From: Bdellovibrionales bacterium
GTDB lineage: Bacteria > Bdellovibrionota > Bdellovibrionia > Bdellovibrionales > JAUICD01
Direction: 5' to 3'
DNA length: 64,000 nucleotides
Assembly: GCA_965262715.1 (NCBI GenBank)
Contig: OZ253553.1
Span: forward strand, 2,080,001-2,144,000
In this document: positions 35,338-53,763 of the stretch, in pieces
Position numbering within the stretch: position 1 is the stretch's first letter
How the letters are laid out: each line of letters opens with the position of its first letter
Translations under genes and position numbers: made by a program
The notes under the pieces: model-generated
Seen by the model: the letters and a program-made list of their open reading frames with translations, nothing else
What the model was told of the DNA's origin: nothing
Databases searched by the model: none

Positions 35338-37359
35338 TTACTCATCCTCTGTAGGTTTTTGTGACGTTTGATTGGTTGTTTGATCTTTGGCTTGTTTAAG
35401 TGTTTCACTAAAAATATCACCAATACTCGTTTTATCTTTAGATTTTGCTTTATCACTATCTCGTTTTAAAGAATCACCTTGTTTTTTAAACTGATCTAAT
35501 TTTGTACTTAAAGCAATTTTCCTTGCTTTCTTATCAATACTCACAACAACAGCTTGTAGAACATCGTCAACTTTCAGATGATCTTCAATTTTTTCAGACC
35601 TTGGTTTATTATGAAGTTCACTGATGTGAATCAGTCCTTCTAAATTTGAAGTTATTTCTACGAAAACTCCAAAATCAACAACTTTGATAACTTTAACTTT
35701 GTGCTCACTTCCAATAGGAAAGTTTTTGTCTATATCTATCCAAGGATCAAACTCTAATTGCTTAATACCTAGACTAAATCTTTCATGCTCTACATCTAAA
35801 CCTAAAACCACAGCTTTAACACTATCACCTTTCTTAAATAACTCTGAAGGATGATGAACTCTCTTTGTCCAAGAAAAGTCAGAAATATGAACTAAGCCAT
35901 CAATATTTTCTTCAATACCAACAAAAATACCAAAATCTGTAACAGATTTAACTTCACCTTGAACAATAGTCCCTGGTTCATAGATCTTTTTTAATTCTTC
36001 CCAAGGATTTGCTTTTAGCTGCTTCATTCCTAAGCTAATACGTCTATGCTCAAAATCCACATCTAAAACAACAACATCGACCTCTTCGCTAACAGATACA
36101 CATTCTGAAGGATGTTTGATACGTTTTGTCCAACTCATCTCACTGATATGAATTAAACCTTCAATACCATCTTTTAATGTTACAAAAGCTCCGTAATCAG
36201 CTAAGCTCACAATGCGTCCCTTCACCTTACTACCAGTGGGAAAAATATCACCCGCCTCACTCCACGGATCAGGTTGAAGTTGTTTCAACCCTAGACTAAC
36301 TCTACCAGTTTTTTCATCGTGCTTAAGAACTTTAACATCTATTTTATTTCCAACTTCTAATATTTCTGAAGGATGCTTAATACGCTTCCAGCTCATATCT
36401 GTAATATGCAAAAGACCATCAAGCCCTCCAAGTCCAATGAATGCCCCATAATCTGTGATATTTTTGATAATACCTGTAATAACATCCCCTATCTTAATGC
36501 TATCTAATTTGTTGTATTGCATTTTTAATTGCTCTTTATCCTCCTCTAATAGAACGCGACGAGACAGCACAATATTACCACGTTTCTTATTAAATTTAAT
36601 TACTTTTAGCTGTAGAGTTTTTCCAACAAAATCATCCAAGCTCTTTACAGGTCGCACATCGATTTGGCTGCCTGGAAGAAATGCCTTCACTCCAATATCA
36701 ACGCTCAAACCACCTTTTACTTTCGCAACAACAACCCCTTCAATAGTCTCCTGATTTTCTGCGGCTTGAGAAATATCATTCCAAGCTTGTAGGACATCCG
36801 CTTTATTCTTAGATAGAACTACCATACCATTTTCATTTTCTAAACGTTCAATATAAACTTCAATCTGACTACCCATTTCAATAGTCATCTCCTTATCTTT
36901 ATCTGATTGAAATTCATGTATAGGAATAAGACCTTCAGACTTATAATGAATATCCACTAAGACAAAATCCTTTTGAATATCAATGATAACACCTTTTACA
37001 ACATCTCCTTGTGAAAAATGACTCTTATATTCTATTTCAAACAGTTGAGCAAAGTCTTCTGAAACTTCAGAAGTCTGAGTAAATAATTCTGGATTATCTT
37101 TAACATTTTTATCTTCAGTATTTAATATTGAAAGTACTTTTTCTTTTTCTATTTGACTTATGCTTTTTTTCTTAGGTAAGTCATCGGATTTTCCGTGTTT
37201 ATGAGATGCTTCCTGATCTGAAGATGAAGCATCTTGAGAAGCATAATCTTTTATATTTTTATGAACACCTGATAGCGAATCAACGACAATGTCCTCTTCA
37301 GAGGTAGATTGAGTTGTTTTTAAGTTTTCTGTTGTGTCTTCTGTTTCTGTTATAAGCAT
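35338..37359 (-). CDS. rpsA: 30S ribosomal protein S1 (long acidic N-terminal extension)
   Basis: Six S1 domains (KSEG.IP, AFLPGSQID, GL.HI.D.SW repeats). Confidence 0.98.
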   Translation of the reverse strand: MLITETEDTTENLKTTQSTSEEDIVVDSLSGVHKNIKDYASQDASSSDQEASHKHGKSDDLPKKKSISQIEKEKVLSILNTEDKNVKDNPELFTQTSEVSEDFAQLFEIEYKSHFSQGDVVKGVIIDIQKDFVLVDIHYKSEGLIPIHEFQSDKDKEMTIEMGSQIEVYIERLENENGMVVLSKNKADVLQAWNDISQAAENQETIEGVVVAKVKGGLSVDIGVKAFLPGSQIDVRPVKSLDDFVGKTLQLKVIKFNKKRGNIVLSRRVLLEEDKEQLKMQYNKLDSIKIGDVITGIIKNITDYGAFIGLGGLDGLLHITDMSWKRIKHPSEILEVGNKIDVKVLKHDEKTGRVSLGLKQLQPDPWSEAGDIFPTGSKVKGRIVSLADYGAFVTLKDGIEGLIHISEMSWTKRIKHPSECVSVSEEVDVVVLDVDFEHRRISLGMKQLKANPWEELKKIYEPGTIVQGEVKSVTDFGIFVGIEENIDGLVHISDFSWTKRVHHPSELFKKGDSVKAVVLGLDVEHERFSLGIKQLEFDPWIDIDKNFPIGSEHKVKVIKVVDFGVFVEITSNLEGLIHISELHNKPRSEKIEDHLKVDDVLQAVVVSIDKKARKIALSTKLDQFKKQGDSLKRDSDKAKSKDKTSIGDIFSETLKQAKDQTTNQTSQKPTEDE

Positions 37360-42626: not shown

Positions 42627-43681
42627 TTTACATCACCTATTGGAAAAAAACAGGCTGCTTTATGCTCCCTTCTTTCAAAAGCCATAAGAAGAGGTTTGCT
42701 TTCTAAACAAGTTTTTTGAACTAAGTGACATCTATCTTGAAAACGACAACCTACTGGTAAGTTTTCAAAACTAGGAACTATACCAGGAATAGTTGTGAGC
42801 TTCTGATAACTCTGAGATGACTGCAGTGGAGGTATAGAATCCAATAATCCTTTTGTATAAGGATGCTTAGGATGAATAAATATCTCTCTCACATTCGCAT
42901 ACTCAATAAACTGACCTGCATACATTACAGCCACTTCATCACACATTTTCGAAACTACACCTAAATCATGAGTGATAAGGATCAGAGACATTCCTAGCTT
43001 ATCTTGAAGTTCTTTGATGAGCCTTAATATCTGAGCTTGAATTGTCACATCAAGAGCTGTTGTCGGTTCATCTGCAATCAAAACATCAGGATCACAACTA
43101 AGAGCCATCGCAATCATCACTCTTTGCCTCATGCCTCCTGATAACTGATGAGGATATTGCTTCATACGCCTTTTGGCCTCAGAAATACCTACAAGATTTA
43201 ACATCTCAACAACTTTATTATGGACATCTTTTGTGCTCATATTAGCATGATGTGATAATACCGCCTCTGCAATTTGATCCCCAACTGTAAAAACAGGATT
43301 TAATGAATTCATAGGTTCTTGAAAAATCATAGAAATGACATTCCCACGGAAAGCTCGCATTTGCTTTTCTGTTAACTTCAAAAAGTCTTTACCCTTAAAA
43401 AGAACCTCTCCATTTAAAATTCTACCAGAAGAAGATAGTAGCCTCATAATAGAAAGAGCTGTAATTGACTTTCCACAACCTGACTCTCCTACAATACCAA
43501 CACTCTTACCTGCATCTAAAGAAAAGCTTACATTATCTACAATTGTTGTGAGGTGATTTCCCCTAACAAAACCTACCTTTAAGTTTTTAACAGTCAATAT
43601 AGGCATATCTCTTTCCATAACAATCATCCTTCTTTCTGTATCAAAGAAAATAGGAATTGCATAACCAGAATTTTTTAACAC
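42623..43681 (-). CDS. Oligo/dipeptide ABC ATPase (OppD/DppD-like)
   Basis: [32 protein letters not shown]; the true start is probably a downstream Met. Confidence 0.93.
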
Positions 43682-43726
43682 CCTTGGATATTTTTATTTT
43701 AAGATGGAATAAGGCTCATGGTCTAT

Positions 43727-44836
43727 TTATAAAAGACTAGAAAAATAATGCAAAACTGATGGGCTTGACCAATTTGCTGTTGAAGCCACTTTTCTAATTA
43801 ACTTATGTTCCTGATTTAGAATATAACTTTCAGGCAACTTCCAAGTACCCCATTTTTTTGCTAGCCCCTGCCCTAAGTCATGCAAAACAACAACATTAGG
43901 AGTGGATACTTCAAAAGCTTTTATAAAATTGATAATATCCTTTTTATTATCATCCATAGAAATAGCTAAAATTTTCACTTGACCTTGAAACTCATCAACA
44001 AGTTCCAACATAGATCCAAATTCTTCCACACAAGGAGCACACCAAGTTGCCCAAAAATTTACAATTGTGATATCTCCTCTAAATTCAGATAAAGACACTA
44101 AACGATCATCTGTCACACTGGGAAGTGTAAAATCTGACGCACCAAACTGTTCTAATCGAGATAAGACATCTTGACTATCATTTGGAATGTTTTCCTCTTG
44201 ACAAGAGCGGACAATAAATAAAGCTGCCACAATCAGAGCTATCAAAATAAGACCTATAAACCAATAACGTTTGACTTTTTCTAATAAGCCAGTATGAGCA
44301 GGCTTTGAAGGTGCTTGCTTAGAAATAGATACATCTTCTTTAACTTCTACTTCCTTAGCTTCTTTTATTGTTTTAACCTCAGTCTTTTTGGCATCTATTG
44401 GTTTTTTAGATACATCATCCACTTTCTTTGTCTTCTTATCCAAATCTTTTTTCTGATCTCGTGTCAAAATTAAATCTGGTTCTACCCATTCAATAAAAGC
44501 CATAGAAGCATTATCTCCAACACGCTCAGCACATTTGACAATACGAGTGTAACCTCCACTACGATCAAGAAACTTAGGCGCTAATCTATTTACAACATCT
44601 GATATTAATGCTTTATCAGGATATTTGGATAAAAGCCGCCGGTAAGAATTCAGATCTTTTCTCTTACCTAAGGTGATCACCCGGTCAGCATGCCTTTTCA
44701 ACTCCTTAGCTTTAGCTAAAGTTGTTTTAATACGTCCATACTTTATCAAAGAAAAAACTAGATTCTTTAATACAGCCTTTTTTTGATTATAACTGTGACC
44801 AAAACTTTTGCGGCCTACTAAAACTCTATGTCTCAT
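43727..44836 (-). CDS. rplQ: 50S ribosomal protein L17 fused to a TM helix and TlpA/ResA thioredoxin domain
   Basis: aa 1-118 L17 (MRHR, IKTTLAKAKEL, RSGGYTRIVK, R.GDNA.MA.IE); Lys/Glu linker; TM aa ~192-209; VNFWATWCAPC (C266/C269), ISMD, LPESYIL. Confidence 0.92.
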   Translation of the reverse strand: MRHRVLVGRKSFGHSYNQKKAVLKNLVFSLIKYGRIKTTLAKAKELKRHADRVITLGKRKDLNSYRRLLSKYPDKALISDVVNRLAPKFLDRSGGYTRIVKCAERVGDNASMAFIEWVEPDLILTRDQKKDLDKKTKKVDDVSKKPIDAKKTEVKTIKEAKEVEVKEDVSISKQAPSKPAHTGLLEKVKRYWFIGLILIALIVAALFIVRSCQEENIPNDSQDVLSRLEQFGASDFTLPSVTDDRLVSLSEFRGDITIVNFWATWCAPCVEEFGSMLELVDEFQGQVKILAISMDDNKKDIINFIKAFEVSTPNVVVLHDLGQGLAKKWGTWKLPESYILNQEHKLIRKVASTANWSSPSVLHYFSSLL

Positions 44837-44885
44837 TTTATTTATCTCGTTACTTTACTGATTTTGCCTGTCTATATCTCATAAC

Positions 44886-46067
44886 TTAACTAGGGGTTTG
44901 ATTTGGATCTTGGCCCTGCCCCTGGCCCTGCCCCTGGCCCTGGCCACCATCATGTCCTTGTTGATTTTGATTAATGTCATCATAGTTATAATGACTGAAT
45001 TCATTGGCTTTACTACGCATATCTGAGGCGTTTTGTCTCATCTTCATTGCCATATCATGATGTTCCATAACTTCAGGAGAAGGAGGCCATCCCTCAATCC
45101 TCATCCCTAATTCTAAATTCATATTTGATAATATCTCTCTAATTTCATTTAAAGATTTCCTACCAAAATTCTTTGTCTTTAACATCTCTGCCTCAGATTT
45201 TGTCACAAGCTCTCCAATATAACGAATATTAGCATTTTTTAAGCAATTTGCACTTCTTACAGAAAGCTCTAAGTCATCTACTGATCTAAATAAGTTTTGA
45301 TTTAACTCAGGAACAGATACCTCTTTAACATATTCTTTTGCTTCTGAAGCTTCATCAAAATTAATAAAAACTTGAACCTGTTCTTTTATTATTTTAGCAG
45401 CTAAAGTACATGCCTCATCTGGCTTTAAAGATTTATCTGTCCAAACTTCTAATGTAAGCTTATCATAATCTGTCCTCTGTCCAACTCGAGCATTGTCAAC
45501 ATAGTAATTCACTCGACGAATAGGACTATACAAGCTATCTACAGCAATAAACCCTACTGGTAAATCTATCTTCTGATCAGAGAATAAAACATAGCCCCTA
45601 CCAAACTTACAAAGAATCTCTGCGTTAAACTTTCCATTTTGTCCTAATGTGCATATATGTTGCTCTGGATTAATAATAGAAATTTTATCTGTTTCTTGAA
45701 TATCCGACGCAGTTACATTGCCAGGTCCAATCTTACTGATTTTTAAAGTAACAGGCTCAGAAGTGTACTGACGAAACCTCACCTCTTTTAAATTTAAAAT
45801 AATATCAGTGACATCTTCTAAAACATCAGGAATAGTTGTAAATTCATGTAAAACTCCATCAAATCTTACAGCGGCAACAGCTGACCCCATCATAGAACTT
45901 AATAAAACTCTTCTAAGAGAATTCCCCAAAGTGACACCATAACCCCTCTCTAAAGGACTGATCACAAATTTTCCATAACTATCAGTCAGTGTGTCATTAT
46001 CCACATGAAAAGACTTTGGTTTAATAAGCTTCTTCCAAAATTGATTATAATGTTCTTGAATTTCCAT
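44886..46067 (-). CDS. rpoA: RNA polymerase alpha subunit with C-terminal extension
   Basis: PLERGYGVTLGNSLRRVLLSS, ELSVRSANCLK, NFGRKSLNEI. Confidence 0.99.
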   Translation of the reverse strand: MEIQEHYNQFWKKLIKPKSFHVDNDTLTDSYGKFVISPLERGYGVTLGNSLRRVLLSSMMGSAVAAVRFDGVLHEFTTIPDVLEDVTDIILNLKEVRFRQYTSEPVTLKISKIGPGNVTASDIQETDKISIINPEQHICTLGQNGKFNAEILCKFGRGYVLFSDQKIDLPVGFIAVDSLYSPIRRVNYYVDNARVGQRTDYDKLTLEVWTDKSLKPDEACTLAAKIIKEQVQVFINFDEASEAKEYVKEVSVPELNQNLFRSVDDLELSVRSANCLKNANIRYIGELVTKSEAEMLKTKNFGRKSLNEIREILSNMNLELGMRIEGWPPSPEVMEHHDMAMKMRQNASDMRSKANEFSHYNYDDINQNQQGHDGGQGQGQGQGQGQDPNQTPS

Positions 46068-47714: not shown

Positions 47715-48716
47715 TCACTCAAAATAAACTGGCCTCTGTTTCACTAAAAATGAACCAGCCTCTGGCTGTTTTTGGATAGTCAGCCTGAAGACTCGCGTCT
47801 TCAAGAAAATGCTGACTATCTCAAAAATCCGTTCATTTTTAGTAAGGAGACTCCCTTCGTTCTTTTACATCATGTTAAGGAAATCTTTTTCTTTATTTTC
47901 TATCTTCCCTACTACCTCTTCCCCTTACAAATTATCCCAAATCTTTATTATAGCTCGTAAAAAATTGATGTTTTAAGTTAAAGACGAGATCTTCCGCAGA
48001 GTGATCGCCACCAAAGCGATCACTCGAGGACTTCGAGGCTTGACTTAAAATATCAATTTTCTGCTCTTTCAAAGATTTTTTCCCTGTTTTTTCTAAAAAA
48101 ATAACCATAATCTAACCTTGCCTCTGCTTATGTTTAGGGTTCTCACAAATAACCCGAATTACTGTCTCACTAAAAATGAACCAGCCTCTGGCTGTTTTTG
48201 GATAGTCAGACTGAAGACTCGCGTCTTCAAGAAAATGCTGACTATCTCAAAAATCTGTTCATTTTTAGTAAACAGATACTCCCCACCTTTTAACATCATG
48301 TTAAGGAAATCCTTAACCTATTCTCACTAAAAATGCCTCTTGCCTCTGGCAACTTTCTGGCAATGACCCCGACGGCTAAAGCCCTCGGCAAATAGGTCAT
48401 CGCCTAGAAAGAATAAGGCATTTTTACTAAGGAGAAACTCCTCATTCTTTTAAACCATGTTAAGGAAACTTCCTCCTTACAAATCACTCTAAATCTTTAT
48501 TATAGCTCGTAAAAAATTGATGTTTTAAGTTAAAGACGAGATCTTCCGCAGAGTGATCGCCACCAAAGCGATCACTCGAGGACTTCGAGGCTTGACTTAA
48601 AACATCAACTTTCTGCTCTTTCAAAGATTTTTTCCCTGTTTTTTCTAAAAAAATAACCATAATCTAACCTTGCCTCTGCTTATGTTTAGGGTTCTCACAA
48701 ATAACCCGAATTAGCT
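47715..48716 (+). repeat. Mosaic of family-A and B elements and rpmJ 3' fragments (552-bp period)
   Basis: Stub 47715-47737; A at 47738, 48164 and 48320; B at ~47962-48059 and ~48514-48610; rpmJ 3' fragments at 48112 and 48664. Confidence 0.92.
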
Positions 48717-49628
48717 GTCTCACTAAAAACGAACCAGCCTCTGGCTGTTTTTGGATAGTCAGACTGAAGACTTGCGTCTTCAAGAAAATGCTGACTATCT
48801 CAAAAATCTGTTCATTTTTAGTAAACAGATACTCCCCACCTTTTAACATCATGTTAAGGAAATCCTTAACTGATTTTTATCTTTCTCCTCGTTTAACCTT
48901 GCCTCTGCTTATGTTTAGGGTTCTCACAAATAACCCGAATTACTGTCTCACTAAAAATGAACCAGCCTCTGGCTGTTTTTGGATAGTCAGACTGAAGACT
49001 TGCGTCTTCAAGAAAATGCTGACTATCTCAAAAATCTGTTCATTTTTAGTAAACAGATACTCCCCACCTTTTAACATCATGTTAAGGAAATCCTTAACTG
49101 ATTTTTATCTTTCTCCTCGTTTAACCTTGCCTCTGCTTATGTTTAGGGTTCTCACAAATAACCCGAATTACTGTCTCACTAAAAATGAACCAGCCTCTGG
49201 CTGTTTTTGGATAGTCAGACTGAAGACTTGCGTCTTCAAGAAAATGCTGACTATCTCAAAAATCTGTTCATTTTTAGTAAACAGATACTCCCCACCTTTT
49301 AACATCATGTTAAGGAAATCCTTAACTGATTTTTATCTTTCTCCTCGTTTAACCTTGCCTCTGCTTATGTTTAGGGTTCTCACAAATAACCCGAATTACT
49401 GTCTCACTAAAAATGAACCAGCCTCTGGCTGTTTTTGGATAGTCAGACTGAAGACTTGCGTCTTCAAGAAAATGCTGACTATCTCAAAAATCTGTTCATT
49501 TTTAGTAAACAGATACTCCCCACCTTTTAACATCATGTTAAGGAAATCCTTAACTGATTTTTATCTTTCTCCTCGTTTAACCTTGCCTCTGCTTATGTTT
49601 AGGGTTCTCACAAATAACCCGAATTACT
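48717..49628 (+). repeat. 4 x 228-bp tandem array (family A + spacer + last 52 bp of rpmJ)
   Basis: Units start at 48717, 48945, 49173 and 49401, each after CT; the last unit runs into intact rpmJ. Confidence 0.97.
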
Positions 49629-53059: not shown

Positions 53060-53073
53060 GAAAACCCCTTTCT

Positions 53074-53763
53074 GTTTCACTAAAATGCATCTCGCCTCTG
53101 GCGATTTTCTGGCGGTCAGCCTGAAGGTTCACAACTTCAGCAAGTAGCTGACTGCCTAGAAAACCTGATGCATTTTAGTAAGGAGAATCTCCTCATTATC
53201 TAACATCATGTTAAGGAAATCTTTTTATCTTCATTCCCTTATCTTTTTAGTTAGTATCTCCTATTCTTTTCCTTATAAACTTCTTAAAACTTTAACCCCA
53301 CCTGTTTCACTAAAATGCATCTCGCCTCTGGCGATTTTCTGGCGGTCAGCCTGAAGGTTCACAACTTCAGCAAGTAGCTGACTGCCTAGAAAACCTGATG
53401 CATTTTAGTAAGGAGAATCTCCTCATTATCTAACATCATGTTAAGGAAATCTTTTTATCTTCATTCCCTTATCTTTTTAGTTAGTATCTCCTATTCTTTT
53501 CCTTATAAACTTCTTAAAACTTTAACCCCACCTGTTTCACTAAAATGCATCTCGCCTCTGGCGATTTTCTGGCGGTCAGCCTGAAGGTTCACAACTTCAG
53601 CAAGTAGCTGACTGCCTAGAAAACCTGATGCATTTTAGTAAGGAGAATCTCCTCATTATCTAACATCATGTTAAGGAAATCTTTTTATCTTCATTCCCTT
53701 ATCTTTTTAGTTAGTATCTCCTATTCTTTTCCTTATAAACTTCTTAAAACTTTAACCCCACCT
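53074..53763 (+). repeat. 3 x 230-bp tandem array (family A + spacer + last 20 bp of rplR)
   Basis: Units start at 53074, 53304 and 53534, each after CT, and each ends in ttaaaactttaaccccacct (rplR 3' end). Confidence 0.97.

What the first reader, a model, noticed from the sequence alone, without database searches (positions are those of the whole stretch)
43727..44836. Ribosomal protein L17 fused to a membrane anchor and a TlpA/ResA thioredoxin
Seen: one uninterrupted 369-aa ORF at the canonical rplQ position: complete L17 (aa 1-118), ~70-aa Lys/Glu-rich linker, KVKRY plus TM helix (aa ~192-209), and a thioredoxin fold with WCAPC. There is no Met between the L17 domain and the TM helix. Established: bL17 lies on the solvent face of the 50S near the exit-tunnel side; TlpA/ResA/CcmG proteins are membrane-anchored extracytoplasmic thiol-disulfide oxidoreductases. 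Inference: with N-in/C-out topology the protein could tether ribosomes to the inner membrane and place a redox domain next to exported nascent chains, unless the linker is cleaved. Many secreted proteins in this window are Cys-rich.
Basis: partly seen in the sequence, partly recalled or inferred. Interest (0 to 1): 0.8.

Follow-up and report, generated by a model that had tools for sequence, protein, structure and literature searches.

The report
Ribosomal protein with built-in membrane anchor
In one genus of uncultured bacteria, the only gene for ribosomal protein L17 runs without a stop into a membrane helix and a thioredoxin enzyme, and both genomes we could check lack the usual machinery that guides ribosomes to the membrane, so their ribosomes are likely leashed to the membrane permanently.

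Summary
The fusion is real. The 369-aa minus-strand ORF is the genome's only rplQ. Public contigs of the same sample match it base for base. Eleven distinct proteins (54-85% identical to it) keep the L17-linker-helix-thioredoxin layout without a stop and form one clade. Relatives carry rplQ and a separate membrane-anchored TlpA gene side by side (30 of 39), so the fusion arose by read-through of neighbours. It is found in 2 of 384 genomes of the order. New here: both fused genomes, and their sister genus, lack Ffh, FtsY and SRP RNA, which 253 of 280 order genomes keep (Ffh). A ten-gene tree puts SRP loss before the fusion. Best reading (55%): the protein stays whole and leashes 50S subunits to the inner membrane, as in mitochondria, while the thioredoxin keeps its ordinary periplasmic job. 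Limits: no protein-level evidence; cleavage is not excluded (27%); 26 other SRP-less genomes show no such fusion; and a neutral ratchet could explain retention.

The parts
43727..44836 (-). Fused rplQ-tlpA ORF, 369 aa plus TAA; the only rplQ of the genome
44483..44836 (-). bL17 domain, aa 1-118, complete; diverges at the same relative rate as unfused L17
44267..44482 (-). Lys/Glu-rich linker, aa 119-190 (54-78 aa in homologs), predicted disordered, no Met here, no conserved motif
44210..44266 (-). Single transmembrane helix, aa 191-209; basic before, neutral or acidic after (predicted N-in/C-out); likely the ancestral TlpA signal anchor
44141..44209 (-). Predicted periplasmic spacer, aa 210-232, with invariant R210 and C212 in 10 of 11 homologs; not a lipobox by this genome's pattern
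43730..44140 (-). TlpA/ResA-type thioredoxin fold, aa 233-369
44030..44044 (-). WCAPC active site (WCxPC in all 11 homologs)
44886..46067 (-). rpoA, upstream neighbour (canonical alpha-operon position for rplQ)

Best explanation
The cell's only L17 gene is fused through a flexible linker to a membrane helix and a TlpA-type thioredoxin, and the protein likely stays whole, so that L17 built into the 50S subunit would leash ribosomes to the inner membrane in cells that lack the SRP targeting system. SHOWN: one stop-free ORF; single copy; one fused clade; derivation from the adjacent rplQ and tlpA genes; absence of ffh, ftsY and ffs in the two fused genomes and their sister genus; SRP loss older than the fusion by parsimony. 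INFERRED: (1) insertion N-in/C-out through SecYEG, probably SecA-driven as reported for E. coli RodZ; (2) L17 assembles into 50S while anchored, on a 54-78 residue leash; (3) ribosomes held at the membrane would reach SecYEG/YidC without SRP, as mitoribosomes do; (4) the thioredoxin keeps its ordinary periplasmic role, likely taking electrons from DsbD for cytochrome c maturation or disulfide repair, now at ribosome copy number. Confidence 0.55 is for the intact tether. That the fusion was kept because it offsets SRP loss is about 0.35.
For: Integrity. Eleven full-length fused clusters, all with both domains, monophyletic at support 1.0. Only 1 of the best 150 hits among 1.84 billion representatives spans the whole profile. 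No way to make free L17 at the DNA level: no stop, no slippery heptamer or A-run over 6 in this linker, and nothing shared with G001. No conserved cleavage motif in the linker, no conserved A-X-A after the helix (by eye), and R/K never occurs at -2 in 127 lipoprotein-like ORFs. The linker never drops below 54 aa. SRP: no PF00448 match in G000, G001, G003 or G004, four matches in G002, control 14 of 14; SRP RNA in G002 only, 1 of 5; G002 Ffh, FtsY and FlhF (identities confirmed) give no tblastn hit at E<0.01 in G000; the Ffh M domain is in 253 of 280 order genomes at least 90% complete. The ten-gene tree groups G000+G001 with G003+G004 at 100/100. SecA, YidC, SecY, trigger factor, DsbD, a CcsBA-like protein and c-type cytochromes are present. 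In the fused pair the thioredoxin core is as conserved as L17 (68.5 vs 67.5%), whereas in 3 unfused pairs it lags L17 by 14-15 points, as expected if it is now made at ribosomal-protein level. Mitochondrial precedent: PMC8321541 (passages). RodZ inserted by SecA: PMC10502375 (passages).
Against: There is no RNA or protein evidence. The fusion is one evolutionary event, so its overlap with SRP loss is n=1; about 10% of order genomes lack Ffh (27 of 280). The SRP-less sister genomes G003 and G004 and 24 SRP-less genomes of another family are unfused, and none of 30 L17s from that family has a hydrophobic helix (max KD 0.8, one cut by a contig end). No other ribosomal protein examined carries one, and YidC has no long basic tail, so a tether of this kind is not required for life without SRP. 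SRP status is known for only 2 of the 11 fused members. bL17 is an early binder (PMC9687910), so 50S assembly would have to occur at the membrane. RseP-like proteases are present. These lineages tend to grow low-complexity tails (RpoA +41 to +238 aa), which makes accidental read-through easy. L17's closeness to the tunnel exit is recalled; the paper passage I saw says only 'bottom of the mature 50S' (PMC10460392).
Confidence: 0.55

Rival explanations
1. Cleaved polyprotein: the fusion is translated whole, then cut in the exposed linker or within the helix, releasing soluble L17 and an ordinary TlpA. It would work like eukaryotic ubiquitin-ribosomal protein fusions (recalled).
For: The linker is long, low-confidence and probably disordered (pLDDT under 50 at aa 139-185). 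RseP-like M50 proteases occur in 5 of 5 family genomes. Cleavage would avoid membrane-bound 50S assembly.
Against: No conserved motif in the linker (about 42% mean identity). RSC/RNC does not match the genome's lipobox pattern. A cut by signal peptidase I or II after the helix would still leave L17 anchored. No dedicated protease gene lies next to the ORF.
Confidence: 0.27
2. Neutral ratchet (competes with the 'why', not with the tether): rplQ and tlpA were already tightly coupled; a drifting Lys-rich tail ran through the stop and the tlpA start codon decayed. Any new stop now kills TlpA, so the fusion is locked in without benefit.
For: In the sister genus tlpA starts 1 and 7 nt after the rplQ stop, and L17 is 260-271 aa. 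Low-complexity tails are common in these lineages. At the ancestral start position G001 has TTA/TTC codons and G000 has TTA, which are not starts. 26 SRP-less genomes manage unfused.
Against: Of 30 adjacent pairs, 12 are already in frame, yet only one clade in 384 genomes is fused, and it is an SRP-less one. This suggests read-through is normally purged. Making TlpA at ribosome copy number should be costly. A second TlpA-like gene exists.
Confidence: 0.4
3. Two products from one ORF: internal initiation (for example at Met112) or recoding yields separate TlpA and short L17, with the fusion a minor form.
For: Met112 has a Shine-Dalgarno-like site (-6.4 kcal/mol in G000 and -7.3 in G001, against -3.0 for the real start). 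One database protein, P0008, was called from that Met.
Against: Met112 is part of the L17 core (33 of 37 unfused L17s have it), and the GGAG comes from the conserved Gly-Asp codons. Internal starts cannot produce free L17. No shared frameshift signal was found.
Confidence: 0.08
4. Co-translational redox coupling: the fusion exists to hold a thiol oxidoreductase beside chains emerging from SecYEG.
For: It is geometrically possible if the protein is intact. The CxxC site is invariant, and the domain evolves more slowly than in unfused relatives.
Against: No Cys enrichment in exported-like proteins. The same TlpA is a free-standing gene in the rest of the order.
Confidence: 0.09
5. Assembly or sequencing artefact joining two genes.
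For: The genome is a metagenome-type single contig, and the matching runs may be its own source.
Against: Eleven divergent fused proteins from several sources, and a second genome.
Confidence: 0.01

Closest known systems
Bacterial bL17 (RplQ; PF01196, TIGR00059), including long-tailed forms such as NF051448 'sunset domain' L17
   Same: Complete L17 core at the end of the alpha operon, single copy; sequence and fold match L17 in solved ribosomes.
   Different: It continues into a membrane helix and an enzyme. It scores far below the sunset-variant cut-off (119 vs 280 bits). No solved chain matches both halves among the best 60 of 79 hits.
TlpA/ResA/CcmG(DsbE) membrane-anchored thiol-disulfide oxidoreductases (B. 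subtilis ResA 1st9/2f9s; Geobacter 3kcm)
   Same: Signal-anchor helix, spacer, WCxPC thioredoxin fold, and a xLPESY cis-Pro loop (motif role recalled); fold matches.
   Different: It has a 190-aa cytoplasmic N-terminus containing a ribosomal protein. It is below the ResA, DsbE and TlpA cut-offs, so it is a subfamily-level relative only.
Mitoribosome tethering (Oxa1 C-tail, Mba1/mL45, Mdm38, Mrx15)
   Same: A stable ribosome-membrane link in a system without Ffh/FtsY; SRP loss was proposed to follow such tethers (PMC8321541, passages).
   Different: Those are separate receptors. Here the anchor is covalent on a core ribosomal protein, it appears after SRP loss, and the cell translates a full, mostly soluble proteome.
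E. coli YqjD/ElaB/YgaM tail-anchored ribosome-binding proteins
   Same: Inner-membrane proteins that hold ribosomes (PMC10502375, passages).
   Different: They are accessory stationary-phase factors, with YqjD binding the 30S subunit; they are not constitutive 50S components.
Streptococcus mutans SRP-independent growth via YidC1/YidC2
   Same: A bacterium that survives without SRP (PMC8546722, abstract start and passages).
   Different: S. mutans keeps SRP naturally and uses basic YidC tails. Here SRP is absent from the genome and the single YidC has a short tail.

Membership tests
bL17 (RplQ) | L17 profile above the curated cut-off, complete core | tested here: met
   PF01196 109 bits; TIGR00059 111.7 vs 70
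bL17 (RplQ) | Follows rpoA; single copy | tested here: met
bL17 (RplQ) | Soluble protein of about 120-200 aa | tested here: not met
   369 aa with a KD 2.9 helix; 36 relatives outside the SRP-less genera are 141-200 aa
bL17 (RplQ) | Incorporated into the 50S subunit | not testable with these tools
   inferred from single copy and a normal divergence rate
TlpA/ResA/CcmG | Thioredoxin fold with CxxC | tested here: met
TlpA/ResA/CcmG | One membrane anchor before an extracytoplasmic domain | tested here: met
   hydropathy and charge bias in 11 of 11; topology predicted, not measured
TlpA/ResA/CcmG | Named subfamily (ResA, DsbE, TlpA) cut-off | tested here: not met
   76.7/170, 56.6/123 and 46/230 bits
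TlpA/ResA/CcmG | Reduced by DsbD/CcdA; acts on apocytochrome c | tested here: inconclusive
   DsbD, a CcsBA-like protein and cytochromes c are present but unlinked; a second TlpA exists
Lipoprotein (Lgt/LspA substrate) | Lipobox before Cys212 | tested here: not met
   R at -2; 0 of 127 lipoprotein-like ORFs have R or K there; Cys absent in P0011
Mitoribosome-type stable membrane tether (works like) | No Ffh/FtsY in the compartment | tested here: met
Mitoribosome-type stable membrane tether (works like) | Ribosomes physically membrane-bound | not testable with these tools
   needs fractionation or tomography
Mitoribosome-type stable membrane tether (works like) | Long basic YidC/Oxa1 C-tail | tested here: not met
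   YidC tails are short in G000-G004; Mba1/mL45 homologs were not searched
Cleaved ribosomal-protein precursor | Conserved cleavage site and dedicated protease | tested here: inconclusive
   no conserved linker motif; general proteases present

The most novel reading that the evidence does not exclude
A bacterium in which every large ribosomal subunit is an integral-membrane particle: after losing SRP, this genus anchored its ribosomes through a core ribosomal protein, converging on the mitochondrial solution, with 50S assembly at the membrane and one periplasmic thioredoxin per ribosome.
Probability: 0.35. Interest if true: 0.92.

Novelty: categorically new. Interest (0 to 1): 0.78.

Why it matters
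SRP is described as universally conserved (PMC10502375). How membrane proteins can be inserted without it, and how mitochondria replaced it with fixed tethers, are open questions. This lineage offers a natural bacterial case: whole-pathway SRP loss, plus a core ribosomal protein with its own membrane helix. It gives a directly testable design (an anchored L17 in a laboratory strain depleted of Ffh) and a natural comparison with two SRP-less groups that lack the fusion. Both halves are known families. The rating of categorically new rests on the arrangement, which my ten literature searches did not show (listings only), and it falls to a new variant if the protein is cleaved.

Tried and rejected
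(1) No RNA holder was listed for the region, which says nothing about expression. Runs X5 and X6 did not span the junction, and no raw reads were seen. (2) search for related loci with the alignment was swamped by generic motifs and read only 1 of 64 and 2 of 64 parts of the collections; 0 of 160 loci were fused and 4 had adjacent genes. A junction-only scan found nothing. DNA is therefore in hand for only 2 of the 11 fused members. (3) The long 'open frame' values for relatives were read-through spans, not fusions. (4) Lipoprotein processing at Cys212 was rejected. (5) Programmed frameshift: no shared signal. (6) L24 loss, suggested, was rejected: L24 is relocated. (7) The idea that all SRP-less lineages carry an anchored ribosomal protein was not borne out; only the S10/spc/alpha genes in the fetched stretches were examined, with the full block in 8 SRP-less genomes plus G000. 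(8) The AlphaFold model is modest (mean pLDDT 60.6, pTM 0.36) and was used only for domain layout. (9) My regex for terminators gave false positives and was not used. The promoter/terminator scan was at chance level. (10) Atlas hits were all 0.80, leads only. (11) Five papers searched for L17's position at the tunnel exit had no mention of L17. (12) P0027, a 327-aa L17+TlpA singleton from another lineage, looks frameshifted and was not counted.

Full report
Observation. Window 44836->43727 on the minus strand is one 369-aa ORF after rpoA. It holds a complete L17 (aa 1-118), a 72-aa Lys/Glu-rich linker, one helix (aa 191-209, KD 2.9) and a WCAPC thioredoxin fold (aa 233-369). It is the only rplQ in this single-contig genome of 2.94 Mb, 92.7% complete. 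Contigs of two runs of one sample, which may be the genome's source, cover 43400-45200 without a difference or gap; two other runs did not span the junction. An AlphaFold model (mean pLDDT 60.6) shows two folded domains, a low-confidence linker and a long helix. Foldseek matches the halves separately, to ribosomal L17 chains and to ResA/Geobacter thioredoxins.

It is a real, single-origin fusion. The protein search returned 11 full-length clusters at 54-85% identity to the query (counting the query itself), plus two partial ones. All 11 carry both Pfam domains. Mean pairwise identity is 79% in L17, 42% in the linker and 74% in the thioredoxin. The linker varies from 54 to 78 aa and never contains a stop. 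The fused proteins form one clade (support 1.0; 64 rows, 260 columns; genomes without a TlpA in the fetched stretch were left out). Among 1.84 billion 50%-identity representatives, 1 of the best 150 spans the profile. Among 384 genomes of the order, 50 had a match at E<=1e-60 and only G000 and its congener G001 were stop-free. The class search added 6 genomes and no fusion. The lineage is likely Bdellovibrionota: this rests on weak Atlas leads, recall and an earlier AI note, and no call names it.

Origin. Of 39 unfused relatives, 30 have a separate helix-anchored TlpA gene directly after rplQ on the same strand, in frames 12/11/7; 1 of the 39 L17s is cut by a contig end. The same order appears in 4 of 160 unrelated loci. 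In the sister genus the TlpA start lies 1 and 7 nt after the stop and L17 has a 140-150 aa Lys-rich tail. In the deeper fused members the ancestral TlpA N-terminus is recognisable (TPxxKGLL versus MSPGLKGLL in G002), but the start codon is gone (TTA/TTC in G001). The fusion therefore arose by read-through of tightly coupled neighbours.

No DNA-level route to free L17. There is no slippery heptamer or long A-run in the G000 linker; G001 has one heptamer at codon 194 that is not shared. Met112 has a Shine-Dalgarno-like site (-6.4 and -7.3 kcal/mol; the real start scores only -3.0), but it is a core L17 residue (33 of 37 unfused), and an internal start could only add free TlpA. The conserved R-S/N-C after the helix is not a lipobox by this genome's usage (0 of 127 with R or K at -2). 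Proteolysis cannot be excluded: RseP-like proteases are present.

The SRP pathway is missing. PF00448 finds nothing in G000, G001, G003 or G004, while G002 of the same family has four matches and 14 of 14 controls ring. The G002 proteins are FtsY, Ffh and FlhF (FlhF is just under its cut-off). They give no tblastn hit at E<0.01 in G000, and phmmer finds only a ParA-like fragment at E 0.012. SRP RNA is found in G002 only. In G002 ffh precedes rpsP; in G000 rpsP is preceded by an unrelated gene on the other strand. Three of the four SRP-less genomes are single contigs, 90-93% complete, and the fourth is 99% complete. Across the order, 253 of 280 genomes at least 90% complete keep the Ffh M domain. 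The misses are these four, 22 genomes of family f6, and one f3 genome; the fragmented f3 genome G383 still has SRP54-type genes. In 24 of 24 tested genomes of three f6 genera no Ffh or FtsY passes the cut-off, while 7 of 7 controls do. A ten-gene tree (1846 columns, 11 genomes) separates G000, G001, G003 and G004 from G002 and the outgroup at 100/100, so one SRP loss precedes the fusion by parsimony. SecA, YidC, SecY and trigger factor remain. I found this, before seeing that an earlier AI note on another genome (e1-7797286) reads the same way; that note is not independent support.

Results against a simple compensation story. The 26 other SRP-less genomes are unfused. None of 30 L17s from the f6 set has a helix, and 19 of 30 have a separate TlpA in the locus. 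No other ribosomal protein of the S10/spc/alpha genes examined exceeds KD 1.5. YidC tails are short. The coincidence is a single event against a base rate near 10%. SRP status is known for 2 of 11 fused members. These lineages also accumulate low-complexity tails (RpoA +41 to +238 aa outside G003/G004). Once the TlpA start is lost, selection for TlpA alone keeps the linker open, so conservation does not prove that tethering is useful. On the other side, 12 of 30 neighbours are already in frame, yet only an SRP-less clade fixed the read-through.

Mechanism. Charges flank the helix as for an N-in/C-out signal anchor in all 11 members. [quoted passage not shown] If uncut, each 50S would be leashed to the membrane on 54-78 residues, much as mitoribosomes are stably tethered where Ffh and FtsY are absent (PMC8321541). 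The thioredoxin most likely keeps a reducing periplasmic role: DsbD, a CcsBA-like protein and c-type cytochromes are encoded, as is a second TlpA. In the fused pair the thioredoxin is 68.5% identical at 80.4% background, equal to L17 (67.5%). In three unfused pairs it is 63/72/48.5% against L17 77.5/87/64%. This fits expression at ribosomal-protein level, but rests on four pairs.

Literature. Ten searches showed no title or abstract start describing an L17-thioredoxin fusion, a bacterial ribosomal protein with a membrane helix, or SRP loss in this order. I saw only the listed rows, and the library lacks most subscription journals. I read matched passages only of PMC8321541, PMC8082313, PMC9099147, PMC10460392, PMC10502375, PMC8546722, PMC9687910 and PMC5071890 (one table row). 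Term searches in PMC7005732, PMC8185961, PMC5458493 and PMC2958802 returned nothing. I read no whole text and no supplements; supplementary tables of genome surveys could record the SRP loss.

Verdict. Intact membrane tether 0.55; cleaved precursor 0.27; internal start or recoding 0.08; redox coupling as the main purpose 0.09; artefact 0.01. Whether the tether is adaptive (about 0.35) or a locked-in accident (about 0.4) is open. Interest 0.78.

Noticed in passing
G000, G001, G003, G004 and genera g102/g114/g115 (G299-G304, G350-G367): At least two apparently independent whole losses of Ffh and FtsY within one order, in genomes of 1.2-2.9 Mb, while some equally small genomes (G283, G286, G342) keep SRP. 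This is worth study on its own.
   Followed up: partly
window 44886-46067; L256-L274: RpoA carries low-complexity C-terminal tails in SRP-less lineages: +51 aa here, +198 in G001, +41 to +238 in f6, but none in G003/G004.
   Followed up: partly
window 48665-49628 and 53072-53763: Near-perfect tandem arrays between ribosomal genes: 228 bp x4.2 (the unit includes the 3' end of rpmJ) and 230 bp x3 between rplR and rpsE. A related repeat lies after the fused gene in G001.
   Followed up: no
G000:C1:2839053-2843528 and 2616222-2616506: The S10/spc cluster is split: S10 genes and L14 lie about 700 kb from L5, and L24 is relocated beside L28 and S18-like genes, as in G002.
   Followed up: partly
L023, L024 (G003, G004): The longest L17s seen (260-271 aa, 56 Lys/Arg in the tail) are in the SRP-less sister genus; such a tail might bind anionic membrane without a helix.
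   Followed up: no
G000:C1:883862-885358; L288: Trigger factor is long and strongly diverged in G000 and G001 (498 aa and a 525-aa frame, versus 442 in G002), with the ribosome-binding motif recognisable.
   Followed up: no
G000:C1:2842193 (S17) and the L4 gene: S17 has a long acidic N-terminal extension and L4 a 34-aa His/Asp-rich C-tail; S1 (window 35338-37359) has an acidic N-terminal extension.
   Followed up: no
G000 genome-wide: Gln is the commonest residue at -2 of lipoprotein-like Cys sites (28 of 127), suggesting an expanded family with an FQNC-type box.
   Followed up: no
P0027; P0274, P0275: Other L17 read-throughs: a 327-aa singleton L17+TlpA that looks frameshifted, and two 737-aa L17s running into an unrelated region with no Pfam match on record.
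   Followed up: partly
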